Below, piece after piece: positions 35,514 through 45,262 of a stretch of 64,000 nucleotides of DNA. The notes beneath the pieces are model-generated. The model made no database searches, had not been told where the DNA came from, and saw nothing but the letters and a program-made list of their open reading frames with translations. The stretch is from a phage. The position numbers and the translations under genes are program-made. The stretch lies in the sequence record PZ445530.1; one strand, 5' to 3'. Positions within the stretch are counted from its first letter, which is position 1. Every line of letters starts with the position of its first letter.

Positions 35514-38500
35514 ATGAGCATGTGGTCGTTCGATTTTGAGTCATCCGGTTTGCTGGAAGACCCAGATCTTTATTATCACTGCGGCCTGTTTAAAGAGCTG
35601 AATAAGAACCGTTTTATGCTGTTCCTTCCTCTGAATGACCGCACACACTACTCCGAGGAGGATATAGAGAAGGCCAAGAACTTTATTCTGGCAAAGAAAA
35701 CTCTTTATAAGGATTTTGAAGTTCGCATAGCAGATTTTTCGGAGTTGGAAGGTTGGCTTACAGGAAATTCCGACTGGTCACCAACAGCTTTGAACTGCCA
35801 TAACTGCTACAGTTATGACTTTATGCTGATGGAGAGATTATCCGGTATTCATTTTGATATGTTCCGTGATCCTAAATGTATGGGGACTATCAACGACCAC
35901 CAGGTTAACCTGTTTGATACGTTGGCGATGAGCCGAATCTTGTGGCCTGATCGCCCTTTACCAAAAGGTTGTCCGGACTCCGTATTCAACCCGGTTACTA
36001 AGAAAATGCAGCCTGTTGGTCCTCACGGCCTTATGGCATGGGGCTACGCCCTTGGTAACCAGAAAGTTCAAATTGATGATTGGCGCGATCTTCCGTTGTG
36101 GAAGTATGTGGATCGTGTATTCGAGGACGTTATCATCCAGGAGCTACTCTGGAAAGAGCTGGTAGCGGAATCAAAAGGTGTATTCTACGGCAAATCTGAC
36201 ATGCAGAACTTTATGTACGATCCTGCCAAAGAGAAGCCGAAAGGGTTCAAGAAGATCACCTGGAAGAACGCATTGCGCCGGGGTATGCTGCAACACTTCC
36301 TGATGGAGCTGCAGGCCCGTCAGGGTGTGTATTTTGACATAGATGGAGCTATTGCTTTACGTGACCGTTGCGATGCGTGGATGAAAGAAATCGCTGATCG
36401 TGTTGAACCACAACTGCCTTTAAAAGAGCTGTCAATGTCTCAGCGGCCCAAGTTCCCTGAAAAGCCGTTTAACCAAGATGGGACAATCTCTAATAATGGT
36501 TGGAAATGGTTAAAAGATAAGCTTGGCTATCCTGTGGACATGAGTGCTTTAGAGTTCAAAGCCCCACCTAAGCGAGCATTTACCTCTACAGGAGATGTCA
36601 GTAAGATGGGGATAAAATGGTGTGAAGAGATGGGCTGCAAAGACCACGATAAGATGGCTGATTTCTTGAGAGGCTATATTAAGGGCACCTCCACACCACA
36701 ACCTTTACCTAAAGAGCTGATGGATCAGGCAATAAGCGATCTGCAGCAGAAGCGAATGCCTGACTGCAAGATACCTATGAAAATCAGCAATCAGGACGAT
36801 ATTAAGCGATACCTGATCAGTGCTGGTTGGCTTCCGACAATGTGGAGAACTAAGGATGTAACTAAAGACAGCAAGAAGAAAGCTTTACCTGATGCAGATG
36901 TTGATGCACGAGTATATGCATATATGGACGAGCTTTTGGAGTCAGAGTATTGTGACCTAATTATCAACTTCTGGAACAAAACTGATGCTAAGTTCCAGAC
37001 AACCGTGCACAAGTTCCGAAGCTTTCCTAACTCCGAAAGGATTAAAAAGGAAGTATTCGGGAAAATACGTAGAAAAGCTAGGGCACTTATTACTTCTCCG
37101 CAACTGAAAGATACGTTTGGACACCTGTGTCCGAATCTTGAAAAATTGAACGGAGAGATGGCTAAAGATATCGTCTTATGGTTATCATTGCGAAACCGCA
37201 GATCGGTACTTGATCCAATCAAGGAGGATAAGGTTGACACTGGTCTTCTTAATCACCCACGTTTGAAGATTGACCATAAGCTTCCTGCTAAAAGCTCTGG
37301 ATTAACAAACACTTCCAGACAGAAACACAGTATTTGTGCAAACATGCCTAAACCCTCTCCTAAAGTGGTTATGGGTAAAGAGATGCGTAGCTTGTGGGGT
37401 GTTCCTCCAGGATACTTTGAGATCGGTATCGACGGGTCCAACTTAGAGCAGCTTATCGGGGCTTGGGGTGCCTTTGAGTTCGACAACGGCCTGTATTACG
37501 ATGTTGTAAGTAACGGAGACGCACACCAAAACAATGCTGAGGCATATACAAAAGTAGCAGGCAGAGAGGTGTCCCGTAACGACGGTAAACCTATCACGTA
37601 TGGGGTTATGTACGGGGCACAAAAAGATAAAGTTGCAGATATGCTGGACATCTCTCCAGAGTTGGGACAAAGGGTAATCGATGCGCTTTGGGATGCCAAC
37701 CCTGGTCTTAAGGGCCGTAAAGAGGATCTGGAGAAATTCTGGGAAGCAACGGGTAAGAAGTTTATCTACTCTTTTGATGGTCATGCCATCTGGACCCGAT
37801 CTAAACACTCTTTACTTAATGCATACCAACAGAATGGTGGTGCATCGCTGTGTGACTTGGTTGGGATACTTATGCACCACCAAATGGTGAAGCGTGGGTG
37901 GTACGATGAAGGTGTTCGTCGTATTATCTATTACCATAAATAACATTGTGGCTTCGTGCAGTGATGCACGTCGAAAACCTCTTTAATTGACGGGAAGGCT
38001 AAGTTGACTTTTACACCTAAACATGGTAAAAGCTCAATATGCTAATCCGCAGCGAAGACTAAAGGGGTGTAGTTAAAATGGCTAGATCAGTTGAGTATCA
38101 CGGATATACCGTGTTTGATGATGGAACAATACCTTTATCGAAACGTGATCATACAACAATGTTTTGTTTTGATAATGGTCGAGGTTACCTTTGCGTAACC
38201 ATGTTCATCGAGGGGAAGCAGTGCACAAAAGGTGTCCACCACTTGGTTGCTGAATGCTTTGTATCAAACCCTGATCCTGAAAGGCTCACATGGGTGAACC
38301 ATAAGGACGGAAACAAATACAACAATGCATACTGGAACCTTGAATGGACCACCCCTGGTGGAAATATCAAACACGCTTATGATAATGACCTCAGAGTAAG
38401 GCCAGTCGGTGAGTATAATGCCAACGCTGTACTGACCGAGGATGAGGTAACGGAGATTTGCGAACTGTTACAAAGTGGTTTACGACAATGCGAGATTAGG

Positions 38501-39133
38501 GATCTTGGGTATCCTTATGAGACGGTCAGAGCCATAAAGCAAAGAAGACAGTGGAAACATATCTCTAAAAACTACACCTGGTAGTAACGTTCAGAGACTA
38601 TCGAAAGCATAGCGCCAACATAAATTGGTGCGAAGAAGCGAGTAGAGTAGACCAGCAAGTGCGGTCGAAATGGGAGGTGCCTTGGTAACAAGGTAGTGAG
38701 ATAGTCCGATCCATACAGGAAACTGTATGGCTGTGCACGTAATGGTGCGGGGTAGCTTAACGACCTACCTGAACTATTGGATGAGTACCAACTTCAAGTC
38801 CCTGACACACCGAAGTATAAGACTGTGTACACCTTCGACACAATTGAAGAATTGGAAGCATTTAAGGCAGAGCAGGAGGCCAAACTTCATGTGTTCGACG
38901 GTCATAAGTACAAAAAGGCACGCAAGGATGAAAACGGAAACGAAGTGGTTGACAGAGACGGAAACACGGTGTACGATCCTATCTTGAACGATGACGGAAA
39001 GCTTGAACTTATCTGGAGTCCTGTGGGCGAAATGGTGGTACATTGCTTCTGGCAAGCTTCTAAAATGATGGGAGTCCCGTTCCAGATCACAGGTGAATAC
39101 TTGTGTGGTCGTAATTGGGGTGATTGTCACTAA
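35514..39133 (+). CDS. family A DNA polymerase with 3'-5' exonuclease, interrupted by a group I intron (exon 1 35514-37937, exon 2 38780-39133)
   Basis: Exo I FDFES; motif A GIDGSNLEQL; motif B KPITYGVMYGAQ; splicing joins ...RIIYYH to DEYQLQV giving motif C HDE; C-terminus NWGDCH resembles T7 polymerase end. Confidence 0.8.
37938..38779 (+). mobile_element. group I self-splicing intron carrying an HNH endonuclease ORF
   Basis: Exon ends in U; internal guide GUGG pairs with exon CCAU; P2 hairpin CGTGCA-GTGA-TGCACG; P-like AATTGACGGGAAGG (37985-37998); Q AATCCGCAGC (38044-38053); R GTTCAGAGACTA (38589-38600); S-like GAGATAGTCC (38698-38707); terminal G at 38779. Confidence 0.75.
38078..38584 (+). 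CDS. HNH homing endonuclease (intron-encoded)
   Basis: HHLVAECF...NHKDGNKYNNAYWNLEW HNH/AP2-type motif; lies between intron Q and R elements. Confidence 0.8.
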   Translation: MARSVEYHGYTVFDDGTIPLSKRDHTTMFCFDNGRGYLCVTMFIEGKQCTKGVHHLVAECFVSNPDPERLTWVNHKDGNKYNNAYWNLEWTTPGGNIKHAYDNDLRVRPVGEYNANAVLTEDEVTEICELLQSGLRQCEIRDLGYPYETVRAIKQRRQWKHISKNYTW

Positions 39134-40931: not shown

Positions 40932-41320
40932 TGAAAAATATTTGGGATATCGATATCTTTGAAGCCTCTAAGCTTGATGGTGCTGATGGAGTGATTATGG
41001 TGTCTGATGGCAAGGCAACACTAACTTCCGGAGATATCATCTATGCCTTGGACGAGCTGGCGCTTCTGAAATCTACCGGTAACACTTTGGAGGAGCGTCT
41101 TCAAGGATTCGCTTTCAAAGAAGGTACAAATACAGCCATGATGTGCACCACACGGACAGTTCAGGTTGGTAACGGTGTCTATATGATTATTGCTGTGTGT
41201 CCTAAATTCAGCAACGTCAACAAAGATGATGCTGACGCGGTCAACGATGTGGTTGTTCTCTTCGTGGGTGACGCTATGGCAGATCTGATGAATGCAGGAG
41301 AAGCAGCAAATGAAGACTGA
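40931..41320 (+). CDS. hypothetical protein (about 129 aa)
   Basis: ATG after gaggaag. Confidence 0.45.
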   Translation: MKNIWDIDIFEASKLDGADGVIMVSDGKATLTSGDIIYALDELALLKSTGNTLEERLQGFAFKEGTNTAMMCTTRTVQVGNGVYMIIAVCPKFSNVNKDDADAVNDVVVLFVGDAMADLMNAGEAANED

Positions 41321-41612
41321 AAACATCACCCCAGCAGGGTTCTTAAAAGTATACCGTGAACTGCTATATACTACAGAGGACAGTGTTCTAGAGTATCCAG
41401 AATATCTTTTGCTGTATAAGTATCTGCAGGAGGCTGGTGAAAATCTGCCAGTTAGTGCAGAAGGTGGTCCAAACTGGATATACAGTGCATGGAGAAAGGT
41501 TGACATTCTCCCAGACCCAGGTAAAGATATGGTAGTTTGGCAGCTTATCAACAACATCGGGATTCCAATCTTTGATGAAGCTGTTAAAATCTATTTTGAA
41601 CTTGACGATTAA
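41310..41612 (+). CDS. hypothetical protein (100 aa)
   Basis: ATG after caggagaag; overlaps upstream gene end. Confidence 0.4.
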   Translation: MKTENITPAGFLKVYRELLYTTEDSVLEYPEYLLLYKYLQEAGENLPVSAEGGPNWIYSAWRKVDILPDPGKDMVVWQLINNIGIPIFDEAVKIYFELDD

Positions 41613-41875: not shown

Positions 41876-41958
41876 CAAATACCTATTGTAATTTACAGAA
41901 GGGGATGCTAAAATAGTGTCTCCTTCTATGTTGTTCAAATAAAATCGGAGATTCCATA

Positions 41959-42327
41959 ATGGAACAAATGAACGATCAAGCGTCGGTTGCGATGAACGAG
42001 CAAGAACAACCTCAAGAATTTTTCTTAGGGTTAAGTAAAGATCAAGTGTCTCTTCTGCTAGTGCTTTCTTCTTTCATGGGAAGACTTCAGGAGCTCACAC
42101 AACAGCCAGAGGCTGAACAATTATTTCAGGCTCTGCGTGAAGAAGAAAAATATCGTCGTTTGGACTATGCCTTGGGTTGGGTAGCTCAACAACGAGATAT
42201 GCTGATGGCCCTCTCTGGGACCACAAGTTTTGCAATGGGCCTGTTGGCTCAAGTTCAGGACAAATTAATTCAAGCAGGGTTTGCACACACGGCAAACACT
42301 AACGAAGAACAAGGAGACAAAGAATGA
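41959..42327 (+). CDS. hypothetical protein (122 aa)
   Basis: RBS cggagatt. Confidence 0.45.
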   Translation: MEQMNDQASVAMNEQEQPQEFFLGLSKDQVSLLLVLSSFMGRLQELTQQPEAEQLFQALREEEKYRRLDYALGWVAQQRDMLMALSGTTSFAMGLLAQVQDKLIQAGFAHTANTNEEQGDKE

Positions 42328-43550
42328 GCGTTATTCAACAATTCGCTAACCCGATGAATCCGCGTGAAACTGTTTTACTGGCTCACGGCATGATTAAACG
42401 CGTCAGCATCAAGCCTATCAAAGGTGCTGATCCTACAACAGGTATTAAAACCACTGTGTGGCAAGGTAAGAAAATTGAGTCCAGCCACACCATCTCTTTA
42501 CTGATTTCTGAACTGGATTCCTCTGATAACCTACTTCAAGGTGGTGAAGAAGTTTGGATCAGTATGGGCGATAAGCTGCTTAAACCGGGTCATCAAGACT
42601 CTGTCTCTGTTAAAATTGATGACAAGTGGGAAACCGTAACGCCAGGATGGATCGTAAATATCCCTTTGAAGGCAAACGAGCATAACGGTAAGACCTACTA
42701 CAAAGGCTCACTGGCTAAGATGGTTAAGCTGGGTGCAGGAGAGGCTCCAGCAGCGACTCAGCAGCAAAAACAGCAACAAGGTGCACAATCACAAGGCCAG
42801 AAGCAGAAACCTCAGCAGAATGCCAATCAGGACGTTTTACGCATCTATGGTGATGTGACTCAGATTGTTGGCAACGTGGTTACTGTTAATGACCACAAGA
42901 TTGGCGAAGGTGCTATGGTTGTAACTGATGAGCAGCTTAAAGACCTGGTGGTAGGTGGTCGTGTTGCAGCCATTGTTGACAAAGACACCGGAAACATTAT
43001 CAGTGGTTTCAAAGCCTATCCTCCTAAGGCAGAGAACGGTACTCAAGGCTCTGGTGGCAAGCGTAAATCCTCTTACGACCCTATCGGTGTGGAAACGGGG
43101 CATAGCATCAATGCGTTGCAAATCATCCTGGATCGCGGGTTTAAGGTAGACGACCCACTAGGAGTGGCTAAAACACTACACGTAGTCACTATTGAGCTTA
43201 AGAAAGAGTATGCTCAAGCCACCAACCGAACTGAAGATGAAGTAGGTGCCAGTGTCGGTAATGCGGTGTTGAACGCTTGTCGCCGTATTGACAAGAAAAC
43301 GAAAGTTGATGATTTTGCAGCGGCAATTACTGCAGAAGCAAAAGATGTCTTGACTAATCTGGCTGAGCCGTTGTACGATTGGATCAAGAACGGTGCTGGG
43401 TCAACTGACCATCAAGAACCTCAGGCTGCCAAACAGGAAGCAGCTCCACAGCAAAACACTGTAGACGCTCCTCCTGTAAATGATGGGGAAGATGACCCGA
43501 TGGATCAGAATCCAGCACAGTACGCCTTTGATGATGACATCCCATTCTAA
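42324..43550 (+). CDS. protein with SSB-type C-terminal tail (ssDNA-binding protein or SSB-tail mimic)
   Basis: RBS caaggagac; Gln-rich low-complexity linker; C-terminus ...YAFDDDIPF identical to the bacterial SSB tip DDDIPF. Confidence 0.55.
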   Translation: MSVIQQFANPMNPRETVLLAHGMIKRVSIKPIKGADPTTGIKTTVWQGKKIESSHTISLLISELDSSDNLLQGGEEVWISMGDKLLKPGHQDSVSVKIDDKWETVTPGWIVNIPLKANEHNGKTYYKGSLAKMVKLGAGEAPAATQQQKQQQGAQSQGQKQKPQQNANQDVLRIYGDVTQIVGNVVTVNDHKIGEGAMVVTDEQLKDLVVGGRVAAIVDKDTGNIISGFKAYPPKAENGTQGSGGKRKSSYDPIGVETGHSINALQIILDRGFKVDDPLGVAKTLHVVTIELKKEYAQATNRTEDEVGASVGNAVLNACRRIDKKTKVDDFAAAITAEAKDVLTNLAEPLYDWIKNGAGSTDHQEPQAAKQEAAPQQNTVDAPPVNDGEDDPMDQNPAQYAFDDDIPF

Positions 43551-43564
43551 CATCTAGTTAACAT

Positions 43565-43592
43565 AGCCCTGCCCGAAAGGGTGGGGCATTTT
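43565..43592 (+). terminator. intrinsic terminator (copy 2 of repeated terminator)
   Basis: Same GCCCTGCCC-GAAA-GGGTGGGGC hairpin as 32578, followed by ATTTTT. Confidence 0.6.
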
Positions 43593-43612
43593 TGTATAAG
43601 GAGATCTGAAAA

Positions 43613-44388: not shown

Positions 44389-44814
44389 ATGATCTATGAA
44401 ATGCCAAAACTGATTCGTGACGATGCCCAAAACGCTAACACCATTATTATGGGCAAACGCATGGATATTATTTGTCATAAAGATTTCTGGGAAGGGAGTT
44501 ACTTCACAGAGTATTTTGGTAAACTGGACAATGGTCTGCTGATCCAGTTCTACACCGATGCGGAAAACAATATCTGCTGGGAGTTCGAAACTGAAGATAT
44601 CCATAAACTTTTCACCTTCCTAGGTATTAAGGTTGAGGCCAAGTTCGAAGAAGGTGAGTGCGACGATTGTGGATTCTACGAGGTAACAGATTTCTATCTC
44701 CCAAGTGGTGAGAACCTTTACTATGAAAGCCACTTCGGTAACTCCAATATGCCACAGTGCTGGACTGAGTTTTTTGAAATTGCGGAAGAGGAGCTGGCAT
44801 ACCGTGATTATTGA
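44389..44814 (+). CDS. hypothetical protein (141 aa)
   Basis: ORF in track. Confidence 0.45.
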   Translation: MIYEMPKLIRDDAQNANTIIMGKRMDIICHKDFWEGSYFTEYFGKLDNGLLIQFYTDAENNICWEFETEDIHKLFTFLGIKVEAKFEEGECDDCGFYEVTDFYLPSGENLYYESHFGNSNMPQCWTEFFEIAEEELAYRDY

Positions 44815-45262
44815 TACTGTAGAGGGAGATTTAATCTCCCTTTTTAAGAGCGGTGCTGGTCACCTGATCCACGGTTGTAACTGCTTCCACACAATGGGCA
44901 AGGGGATAGCAAAACAGATTTCCCGTGAGTTCCCTCAAGCATTGGCAGCTGACAAAGAGACTAGATATGGTTGCCTAAGTAAACTGGGTGCGTTCTCCCG
45001 ATGGGAGCACTTATCTCCGAGAGGTATTGTCTACGGAATCAATCTGTATACTCAGTTCTACCCAGGACCTAATGCTGAATATTTCTCAATTCTGAAAGGC
45101 TTTGAGCTAGTCAATGAGGTATTCAGTAGATCGACTTTACCATTCTACATCCCTAAGATCGGGTGCGGCATAGGCGGTTTGAAGTGGGAGCACGTAGAGG
45201 ACGTTATTAACCTTGCCACTTTTGATATGGATATTATCGTGGTAGACTACAAAAAGTGTTGA
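44804..45262 (+). CDS. macrodomain protein (TARG1/OARD1/DarG-like ADP-ribosyl hydrolase)
   Basis: GTG start after GAGGAG overlapping upstream stop; GDLISLF, HGCNCFHTMGKGIA and PKIGCGIGGLKWEHV parallel TARG1 blocks GDLF, HCISEDCRMGAGIA, PRIGCGLDRLQWENV (recalled from memory). Confidence 0.7.
   Translation: MIIDTVEGDLISLFKSGAGHLIHGCNCFHTMGKGIAKQISREFPQALAADKETRYGCLSKLGAFSRWEHLSPRGIVYGINLYTQFYPGPNAEYFSILKGFELVNEVFSRSTLPFYIPKIGCGIGGLKWEHVEDVINLATFDMDIIVVDYKKC

What the first reader, a model, noticed from the sequence alone, without database searches (positions are those of the whole stretch)
42324..43550. 408-aa protein ending in the bacterial SSB C-terminal tail DDDIPF
The final residues ...YAFDDDIPF reproduce the SSB tip motif that host replication/repair proteins dock onto, preceded by a Gln-rich flexible linker. 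Either a divergent phage SSB or a decoy that competes for SSB-interacting host proteins.
Basis: partly seen in the sequence, partly recalled or inferred. Interest (0 to 1): 0.55.

Follow-up and report, generated by a model that had tools for sequence, protein, structure and literature searches.

The report
Phage SSB-like protein with host SSB tail
This gene of an rV5-like E. coli phage most likely encodes the phage's own single-stranded-DNA-binding protein, carrying a copy of the host SSB docking tail; a 99%-identical protein was described in a 2026 preprint as the trigger of the DRT10 anti-phage defence, so the finding is real but not new.

Summary
Window 42324-43550 (+) encodes a 408-aa protein ending FDDDIPF, identical to the last 7 residues of E. 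coli SSB (chance expectation 1.4e-5 per window). The window is a Vequintavirus (rV5-like phage). The protein is 405/408 identical to Bas52_0087, which a bioRxiv preprint (10.64898/2026.04.29.721553) reports as an "SSB-like" trigger of the DRT10 defence. That preprint contains no biochemistry on the protein.

The family has 249 clusters at 50% identity and no Pfam model. Its core is OB + bundle + tail, and 103 of 133 full-length representatives end in [ILVM]PF. In four independent lineages the gene closes a T7-style replication block (DnaB-type primase-helicase, Pol A). No other SSB is detectable in the phage genome.

Best reading: the phage's replicative SSB, not a pure decoy. About 10% of family members carry a short extension after IPF; the 13-16-residue form is a conserved cap that remains unexplained.

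The parts
42324..43550 (+). Complete gene for the 408-aa SSB-like protein, stop codon included. It is the orthologue of Bas52_0087 / QXV84166.1 (405/408 identical) and of bas56_0085, and belongs to PHROG 4477.
42313..42316 (+). GGAG Shine-Dalgarno, 7 nt before the ATG. The ATG overlaps the stop of the upstream ORF (ATGA at 42324-42327), which suggests translational coupling.
42324..42737 (+). N-terminal beta-barrel (aa 1-138), OB-like and the putative ssDNA-binding domain. Conserved across the family: T54-H55, K97, an aromatic at 102, G108, G122-K123, Y126.
42738..42833 (+). Disordered Gln-rich linker 1 (aa 139-170).
   Evidence: pLDDT 25-36; sequence
42834..43019 (+). Small second beta-barrel (aa 171-232), with b1-b2-b3-short helix-b4-b5 topology (OB-like). 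It is a lineage-specific insertion, absent from the short-form majority of the family, and is not a detectable duplicate of the N-domain.
43077..43394 (+). Four-helix bundle (aa 252-357), the most conserved part of the family. Conserved positions: D252, G255, G259, H260, N263, H286, T289, K293, G308, G312, A314, L316, A318. It contains both published DRT10 escape positions: D252 (codon 43077-43079) and Y351 (codon 43374-43376). It is a putative oligomerisation or partner interface.
   Evidence: AF2 pLDDT 92-97 in the domain-only model; conservation; no specific solved relative; escape mutations
43395..43520 (+). Disordered acidic, Pro/Gln-rich linker (aa 358-399), analogous to the intrinsically disordered linker of bacterial SSB.
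   Evidence: pLDDT below 50; tail segment aa 358-408 has net charge -11
43521..43547 (+). C-terminal tip YAFDDDIPF (aa 400-408). The last 7 residues are identical to the E. coli SSB-Ct.
43566..43597 (+). Intrinsic-terminator-like hairpin (9 bp stem, 7 GC pairs) plus a T-run, 16 nt after the stop. It closes the transcription unit.
41959..42327 (+). Upstream 122-aa ORF (PHROG 7310, function unknown), overlapping and probably co-translated with the SSB-like gene. It is preceded by a promoter-like site (41886-41914) and a hairpin (41897-41927). It is part of the same small operon, but I found no evidence that it binds DNA.

Best explanation
The gene encodes the replicative single-stranded-DNA-binding protein of an rV5-like (Vequintavirus) phage. 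It belongs to a phage-specific SSB family that has no Pfam model.

Proposed mechanism:
- The N-terminal OB-like barrel binds ssDNA, helped in this clade by a second small barrel (inferred from fold).
- The conserved four-helix bundle mediates self-association and/or contact with the phage replisome. This is inferred from its conservation and from the published escape mutations D252V and Y351C, which lie in it.
- The disordered acidic linker presents a C-terminal FDDDIPF tip identical to the host SSB-Ct. The tip would recruit proteins that dock on SSB tails: host factors such as exonuclease I/SbcB, RecQ, PriA and the Pol III chi subunit, and possibly the phage's own T7-style Pol A and primase-helicase, as T7 gp2.5 does with its acidic ...DF tail (inferred).

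For: 1. Identity: the window is 97-98% identical in nucleotides to Vequintavirus genomes. The protein is 405/408 identical to Bas52_0087.

3. Conserved aromatic and basic positions in the N-domain: H55, K97, aromatic 102, K123, Y126.

4. Tail: invariant P-F terminus; 103 of 133 full-length representatives end in [ILVM]PF and 29 in exactly DDDIPF. Several end in NEPPMDFDDDIPF, the last 13 residues of E. coli SSB. The only sequence similarity of the family profile to any PDB chain is to the SSB C-terminus.

5. Context: the window has a PIF1-like helicase, a DnaB-type primase-helicase and a family-A polymerase upstream. In three distant short-form lineages the gene directly follows DnaB/Toprim plus DNA_pol_A.

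6. No alternative SSB: none is annotated in the whole Bas56 genome. No ORF resembles E. coli SSB, T7 gp2.5 or T4 gp32.

7. Independent literature: Phold and AF2 'SSB-like', the C-tip motif noted, and missense-only escape mutants D252V/Y351C.

8. Three GenBank records annotate this gene or a homologue as an SSB or ssDNA-binding protein: JLBYU08, KpS11 and KP2025.
Against: - No biochemical evidence for ssDNA binding, oligomerisation or tail-partner binding exists for any family member. The preprint relies on prediction only.
- There is no sequence match to Pfam SSB families.
- The net charge of the N-domain is only about +1 to +3.
- About 10% of family members carry an extension after IPF that would bury the Phe carboxylate. 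A free tip is therefore not universally required.
Confidence: 0.75

Rival explanations
1. SSB-tail decoy. The protein's main job is to present a host-identical SSB-Ct that titrates host SSB clients (for example exonuclease I/SbcB, RecQ, RecJ/RecO, PriA, UDG) away from host SSB or from phage DNA ends. ssDNA binding would be secondary or absent.
For: The tip is identical to the host's over 7 residues here, and over up to 13 residues in relatives. [quoted passage not shown] In one distant locus a T7 gp5.9-like gene (the RecBCD-inhibitor family) lies directly upstream, which suggests a nuclease-countering neighbourhood.
Against: A decoy would not need about 350 residues of conserved OB-like and helical domains, and the helical domain is more conserved than the tail-proximal linker. 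The gene is syntenic with polymerase and helicase genes in four lineages. It is the only SSB candidate in a phage that carries its own replisome. Expression alone did not affect E. coli viability, which would be unexpected for an efficient titrator of essential SSB clients. Natural capped-tail variants occur in isolated phages such as Bas49. The DRT10 escape mutations map to the bundle, not the tail.
Confidence: 0.1
2. Recombination mediator or annealing protein (RecO-like logic: an OB fold plus a helical domain). It would load or assist a recombinase, or anneal ssDNA, using the SSB-like tail to reach SSB-client sites. It would not be the general replicative SSB.
Confidence: 0.07
3. The SSB-like appearance is coincidental: a structural or regulatory protein with generic beta-barrels that happens to end in an acidic-aromatic peptide.
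Against: The chance expectation for the tip is 1.4e-5. The tip is conserved in over 100 divergent clusters. The replication synteny is conserved. There is a genetic link to an ssDNA/cDNA-based defence modulated by an SSB client, SbcB.
Confidence: 0.03

Closest known systems
Bas52_0087 (QXV84166.1) of Escherichia phage RudolfGeigy/Bas52, the 'SSB-like' trigger of the DRT10 (UG17) reverse-transcriptase defence (bioRxiv 10.64898/2026.04.29.721553)
   Same: It is the orthologous gene in the same genomic position. The protein is 405/408 identical, with the same FDDDIPF tip and the same D252 and Y351. The preprint already notes the SSB-like predicted fold and the C-tip motif.
   Different: There are three substitutions in the C-terminal disordered region (A369T, G388E, A401S). 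[quoted passage not shown] My models add a confident four-helix bundle at 253-355, which holds both escape positions, and show that the second barrel is a clade-specific insertion.
Bacterial-type SSB (E. coli SSB; Pfam PF00436), including the SSBs encoded by some phages. One precedent from the literature search is the phage HK620 SSB that stimulates its cognate Sak4 (PMC5928155, title and abstract only).
   Same: An OB-fold body, then an intrinsically disordered Gly/Gln/Pro-type linker, then an acidic tip ending in IPF. The tip is identical over 7 residues.
   Different: There is no detectable sequence homology in the OB domain, and PF00436 is not matched. An extra four-helix bundle sits between the OB domain and the tail, and this clade has an extra small barrel. 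The oligomeric state is unknown.
T7 gp2.5 (the SSB of a T7-type replisome)
   Same: A phage-specific SSB serving a DnaB/Toprim primase-helicase and a family-A polymerase. Both have an acidic C-terminal tail with an essential terminal Phe that contacts polymerase and helicase (established knowledge for T7). The gene context is of the same type. Some family members end in ...DF like gp2.5.
Deinococcus-Thermus SSB (two OB folds per chain)
   Different: The second barrel here is a 62-residue insertion, is not a detectable duplicate of the first (hhalign probability 0.1%), and is absent from most of the family.

Membership tests
Bas52_0087-type DRT10 trigger (Vequintavirus SSB-like protein; PHROG 4477) | Near-identical sequence, and the same locus between the Pol A block and the macro-domain gene | tested here: met
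   405/408 identity to L007:1501-2724. The same neighbours are present. PHROG 4477 matches at E 2.9e-173.
Bas52_0087-type DRT10 trigger (Vequintavirus SSB-like protein; PHROG 4477) | The residues whose substitution abolishes triggering (D252, Y351) are present | tested here: met
   D252 and Y351 are both present. D252 is conserved in 86% of 78 family members.
Bas52_0087-type DRT10 trigger (Vequintavirus SSB-like protein; PHROG 4477) | Actually triggers DRT10 during infection | not testable with these tools
   Genetic evidence exists only for Bas52.
Bacterial-type SSB (PF00436) | Sequence match to the SSB OB-domain profile | tested here: not met
   No Pfam hit for the window protein even at E up to 10, nor for 78 family members at E up to 0.01. 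phmmer with E. coli SSB gives E above 1.
Bacterial-type SSB (PF00436) | OB-fold DNA-binding domain | tested here: inconclusive
Bacterial-type SSB (PF00436) | Disordered linker followed by an acidic C-terminal tip ending [ILV]PF-COOH | tested here: met
Bacterial-type SSB (PF00436) | High-affinity, sequence-independent ssDNA binding as a homo-oligomer | not testable with these tools
   No biochemistry is available, and the preprint did none.
T7 gp2.5-like SSB (DUF2815 / phage ssDNA-binding domain) | Sequence or fold match to gp2.5 | tested here: not met
T7 gp2.5-like SSB (DUF2815 / phage ssDNA-binding domain) | Acidic tail with a terminal aromatic residue, encoded alongside a gp4-like primase-helicase and a family-A polymerase | tested here: met
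SSB-Ct decoy (a tail peptide without a DNA-binding body) | The tip is present on a protein that lacks a nucleic-acid-binding fold | tested here: not met
   The tip sits on conserved OB-like and helical domains.

The most novel reading that the evidence does not exclude
The family may be a distinct, biochemically uncharacterised class of phage SSB: an OB fold, an obligatory four-helix bundle, and a host-type tip. In this reading the tip is a regulated or evolvable interface. The conserved 13-16-residue cap after IPF (AP[IV]GLQY-x4-[IV][YH]xL) is found in distant lineages, and in Bas49 it is linked to a mobile endonuclease cassette. It would mask the Phe carboxylate and so switch the protein's partner set, or hide it from defences that sense phage SSBs or their interference with SbcB (DRT10, retron Eco8, DRT9).
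Probability: 0.15. Interest if true: 0.6.

Novelty: already known. Interest (0 to 1): 0.35.

Why it matters
Phage SSBs are emerging as signals that reverse-transcriptase-based defences read. The DRT10 preprint states that DRT9 cDNA likely sequesters a phage SSB. Retron Eco8 is reported to detect phage SSB (reference list seen). This protein's orthologue is the DRT10 trigger.

This protein shows that a large phage group encodes an SSB-like protein with no Pfam model. The group comprises rV5-like, phi92-like and related phages of Escherichia, Klebsiella, Salmonella, Cronobacter, Pectobacterium and Erwinia (252 GenBank phage records; 249 clusters at 50% identity). Nearly all of these records label the gene 'hypothetical protein', so annotation could be corrected widely.

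The host-identical tip offers a concrete way to test how a phage SSB interferes with host ssDNA nucleases. The naturally capped variants offer ready-made controls for that test.

Tried and rejected
1. Sequence-level family assignment. Pfam on the protein and on 78 relatives, and a PDB sequence search with the single sequence and with a profile, gave nothing except the tail matching E. coli SSB.

3. A conserved partner gene upstream. The small upstream ORFs belong to PHROG 7310 in the long-form clade and PHROG 16560 in the short-form clade, and they are not detectably related (BLASTP E 0.068). In L009 the upstream gene is a gp5.9-like ORF instead. I rejected this idea.

4. The middle barrel as a duplication of the N-domain. 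hhalign gives probability 0.1%, so I rejected it.

5. The post-IPF extension as a mere by-product of homing-endonuclease insertion. This fits the Bas49 arrangement. It is rejected as a general explanation, because distant homologues have the cap with no endonuclease gene following on the same strand. The annotated 'homing endonuclease' has no Pfam match.

6. A second SSB in the genome. None is annotated, and there are no phmmer hits.

7. Further literature on this protein or on the cap motif. I found nothing beyond the DRT10 preprint.

8. The per-phage DRT10 sensitivity of capped versus uncapped BASEL phages could not be read, because the heat map is a figure.

Full report
OBSERVATION

The ORF at window 42324..43550 (+) is real. 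It encodes 408 residues ending ...NPAQYAFDDDIPF followed by TAA. A GGAG lies 7 nt upstream of the ATG, and the ATG overlaps the stop codon of a 122-aa upstream ORF (ATGA). Sixteen nucleotides after the stop there is a GC-rich hairpin with a T-run, which looks like an intrinsic terminator.

Using the window's own amino-acid frequencies, the expected number of ORFs ending in DDDIPF is 1.4e-5. No other ORF in the window, or in the complete genome of the closely related phage Bas56, has such an end.

One descriptive detail in the finding needs correcting. The strongly Gln-rich stretch (aa 146-170) is an internal linker. The linker adjacent to the tail (aa 358-400) is disordered and mixed Pro/Gln/acidic.

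WHERE IT COMES FROM

The region is 97-98% identical in nucleotides to Vequintavirus genomes, the rV5-like E. coli myoviruses, including several BASEL phages. The gene is 100% identical to that of phage A6-1. It is annotated 'hypothetical protein' in all but one of the 50 annotated Vequintavirus records listed; JLBYU08 calls it 'putative single-stranded DNA-binding protein'. Homologues in two Klebsiella phage records, KpS11 and KP2025, are annotated as an ssDNA-binding-domain protein and an SSB. It belongs to PHROG 4477 ('unknown function', E 2.9e-173) and matches nothing in Pfam.

ALREADY DESCRIBED

A bioRxiv preprint of 30 April 2026 (10.64898/2026.04.29.721553) identifies Bas52_0087 (QXV84166.1, phage RudolfGeigy) as the phage factor needed to activate the DRT10/UG17 reverse-transcriptase defence. 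The preprint reports the following:
- Two escape mutants carry D252V or Y351C.
- The authors point out the FDDDIPF tip and suggest interference with exonuclease I/SbcB.
- Expression of the protein alone was neither toxic nor sufficient to trigger the defence.
- No ssDNA-binding or tail experiments were done.

I confirmed that bas52_0087 is the gene that matches this window. The two proteins are 405/408 identical, and D252 and Y351 are both present.

ANATOMY

AlphaFold2 with a 25-sequence alignment gives three confident folded units:
- a beta-barrel at aa 1-138;
- a small barrel at aa 171-232, with b1-b2-b3-helix-b4-b5 topology;
- a four-helix bundle at aa 253-355.

These are separated by disordered linkers and followed by a disordered tail. 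A domain-only model of aa 240-408 raises the bundle to pLDDT 92-97.

Both published escape positions lie in the bundle: D252 at the N-cap of helix 1 and Y351 in helix 4. The preprint's summary does not list this domain, although it calls the region a putative oligomerisation interface.

THE FAMILY

An exhaustive profile search finds 249 clusters at 50% identity. Of the 150 listed representatives, 101 are 230-339 aa (N-barrel plus bundle plus tail), 32 are 340 aa or longer (with the extra middle barrel), and 17 are fragments. The family core is therefore OB-like barrel + four-helix bundle + disordered acidic linker + tip. The second barrel is a clade-specific insertion and is not a detectable duplicate of the first (hhalign probability 0.1%).

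The bundle is the most conserved part: D252, G255, G259, H260, N263, H286, T289, K293, G308, G312, A314, L316 and A318. The N-barrel keeps a set of aromatic and basic positions: H55, K97, aromatic 102, K123 and Y126.

Of 133 full-length representatives, 103 end in [ILVM]PF-COOH (29 in exactly DDDIPF), and 17 end in related acidic-aromatic forms such as PF, PW or DF. Some members end in NEPPMDFDDDIPF, the last 13 residues of E. coli SSB.

GENOMIC CONTEXT

In the window the gene lies about 3 kb downstream of a PIF1-like helicase, a DnaB-type primase-helicase and a family-A DNA polymerase. In three distant short-form lineages (L009, L010/KP2025, L011) the gene comes after the Toprim/DnaB helicase and Pol A genes, separated from them only by a few small ORFs, and closes the replication block. 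This is the gene set of a T7-type replisome, in which the SSB (gp2.5) uses an acidic tail with a terminal Phe to contact polymerase and helicase (established knowledge).

The whole Bas56 genome has no annotated SSB. No ORF resembles E. coli SSB, T7 gp2.5 or T4 gp32.

MECHANISM

The best-supported reading (confidence 0.75) is that this is the phage's replicative SSB.
- Inferred: the OB-like N-domain binds ssDNA. The bundle mediates oligomerisation and/or replisome contacts. The disordered acidic linker presents a host-identical tip that recruits SSB-Ct clients and possibly the phage's own polymerase or helicase.
- Shown: only the genetics in the preprint, namely that missense changes in the bundle let Bas52 escape DRT10, and that supplying the wild-type protein in trans enhances restriction.

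That only missense escapers were recovered is consistent with an essential gene, but with n = 2 this is weak evidence.

The pure-decoy rival (0.10) is disfavoured for several reasons: the large conserved body, the replication synteny, the lack of any other SSB, the non-toxicity on expression, and the natural capped-tail variants. A secondary 'competition with host SSB for SbcB' role is compatible with the main reading. A RecO-like mediator role (0.07) has only weak fold support. Coincidence (0.03) is excluded for practical purposes by the conservation.

UNEXPECTED SIDE OBSERVATION

About 10% of family members carry extra residues after IPF. In 12 of these the extension is a conserved 13-16-residue peptide, AP[IV]GLQY-x4-[IV][YH]xL. 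SSB-Ct recognition by its clients uses the free carboxylate of the terminal Phe (established knowledge), so this cap should mask the tip.

In Bas49/EmilHeitz the cap arrives together with a ~640-bp block that carries an annotated putative homing endonuclease. The block is inserted exactly at the last codons of the gene, and the flanks, including the terminator, are otherwise identical.

In distant phages, however, the cap is present with no endonuclease gene following on the same strand. In L015 a convergent tail-fibre gene follows 37 bp later. The cap is therefore a native alternative C-terminus, not just an insertion scar. Its function is unknown, and the motif occurs in no searchable paper. 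The capped phages are natural controls for tail function.

VERDICT

The finding is not new: a 99%-identical orthologue has been published as an SSB-like protein with a C-tip motif.

This analysis adds five things: the family-wide picture, the obligatory four-helix bundle that holds the escape mutations, the conserved position at the end of T7-type replication modules, the absence of any other SSB, and the capped-tail variants. Interest is moderate (0.35).

Noticed in passing
window 43545-43550 (insertion point); L012 2725-3367 (Bas49 EmilHeitz); L015 4001-5230; L013 4001-5218: Part of the family carries a conserved 13-16-aa cap after the IPF tip (AP[IV]GLQY-x4-[IV][YH]xL), which would bury the terminal Phe carboxylate. 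In Bas49 the cap comes with a ~640-bp cassette holding an annotated putative homing endonuclease, inserted exactly at the gene's last codons. In distant phages the cap exists without such a gene. Its function is unknown.
   Followed up: partly
window 41959-42327 (+): A 122-aa helical, acidic ORF (PHROG 7310, no Pfam match) overlaps the SSB-like gene's start (ATGA) and shares its small transcription unit. One GenBank record (JLBYU08) labels it 'putative single-stranded DNA-binding protein', but I found no evidence for that. The short-form clade has an unrelated small ORF (PHROG 16560) in the same position.
   Followed up: partly
window 35514-37943, 38078-38584, 38777-39133 (+): The family-A DNA polymerase gene appears to be interrupted. 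In Bas56 the polymerase CDS is annotated as joined from two pieces, with a putative homing endonuclease nested between them. The window shows the same arrangement of ORFs (809 aa, 168 aa, 118 aa).
   Followed up: no
phage records MG065635, MG065644, MG065690 and others: Sixteen unannotated GenBank records named 'Campylobacter phage' (host given as C. jejuni) are 96-98% identical to E. coli rV5-like phages across this region. This suggests mislabelled or contaminating phages.
   Followed up: no
alignment A1, proteins P0040-P0042 versus P0011: There is domain-boundary mosaicism. These homologues have an N-domain only about 50% identical to the window protein, but a Gln-rich linker and middle barrel nearly identical to those of P0011. 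This indicates recombination at the disordered linkers.
   Followed up: no
L009 9837-10001 (+): In one distant short-form lineage the ORF directly upstream of the SSB-like gene matches PF25708 (the T7 gp5.9 family, a RecBCD inhibitor). The ORF's end abuts the SSB-like gene's start.
   Followed up: no
window 41292-41612 (+); L013 3114-3389; L015 2791-3069: A DUF7238 (PF23885) gene is conserved a few genes upstream of the SSB-like gene, both in the window and in distant long-form loci. A weak macro-domain protein lies downstream in the window (44705-45262).
   Followed up: no
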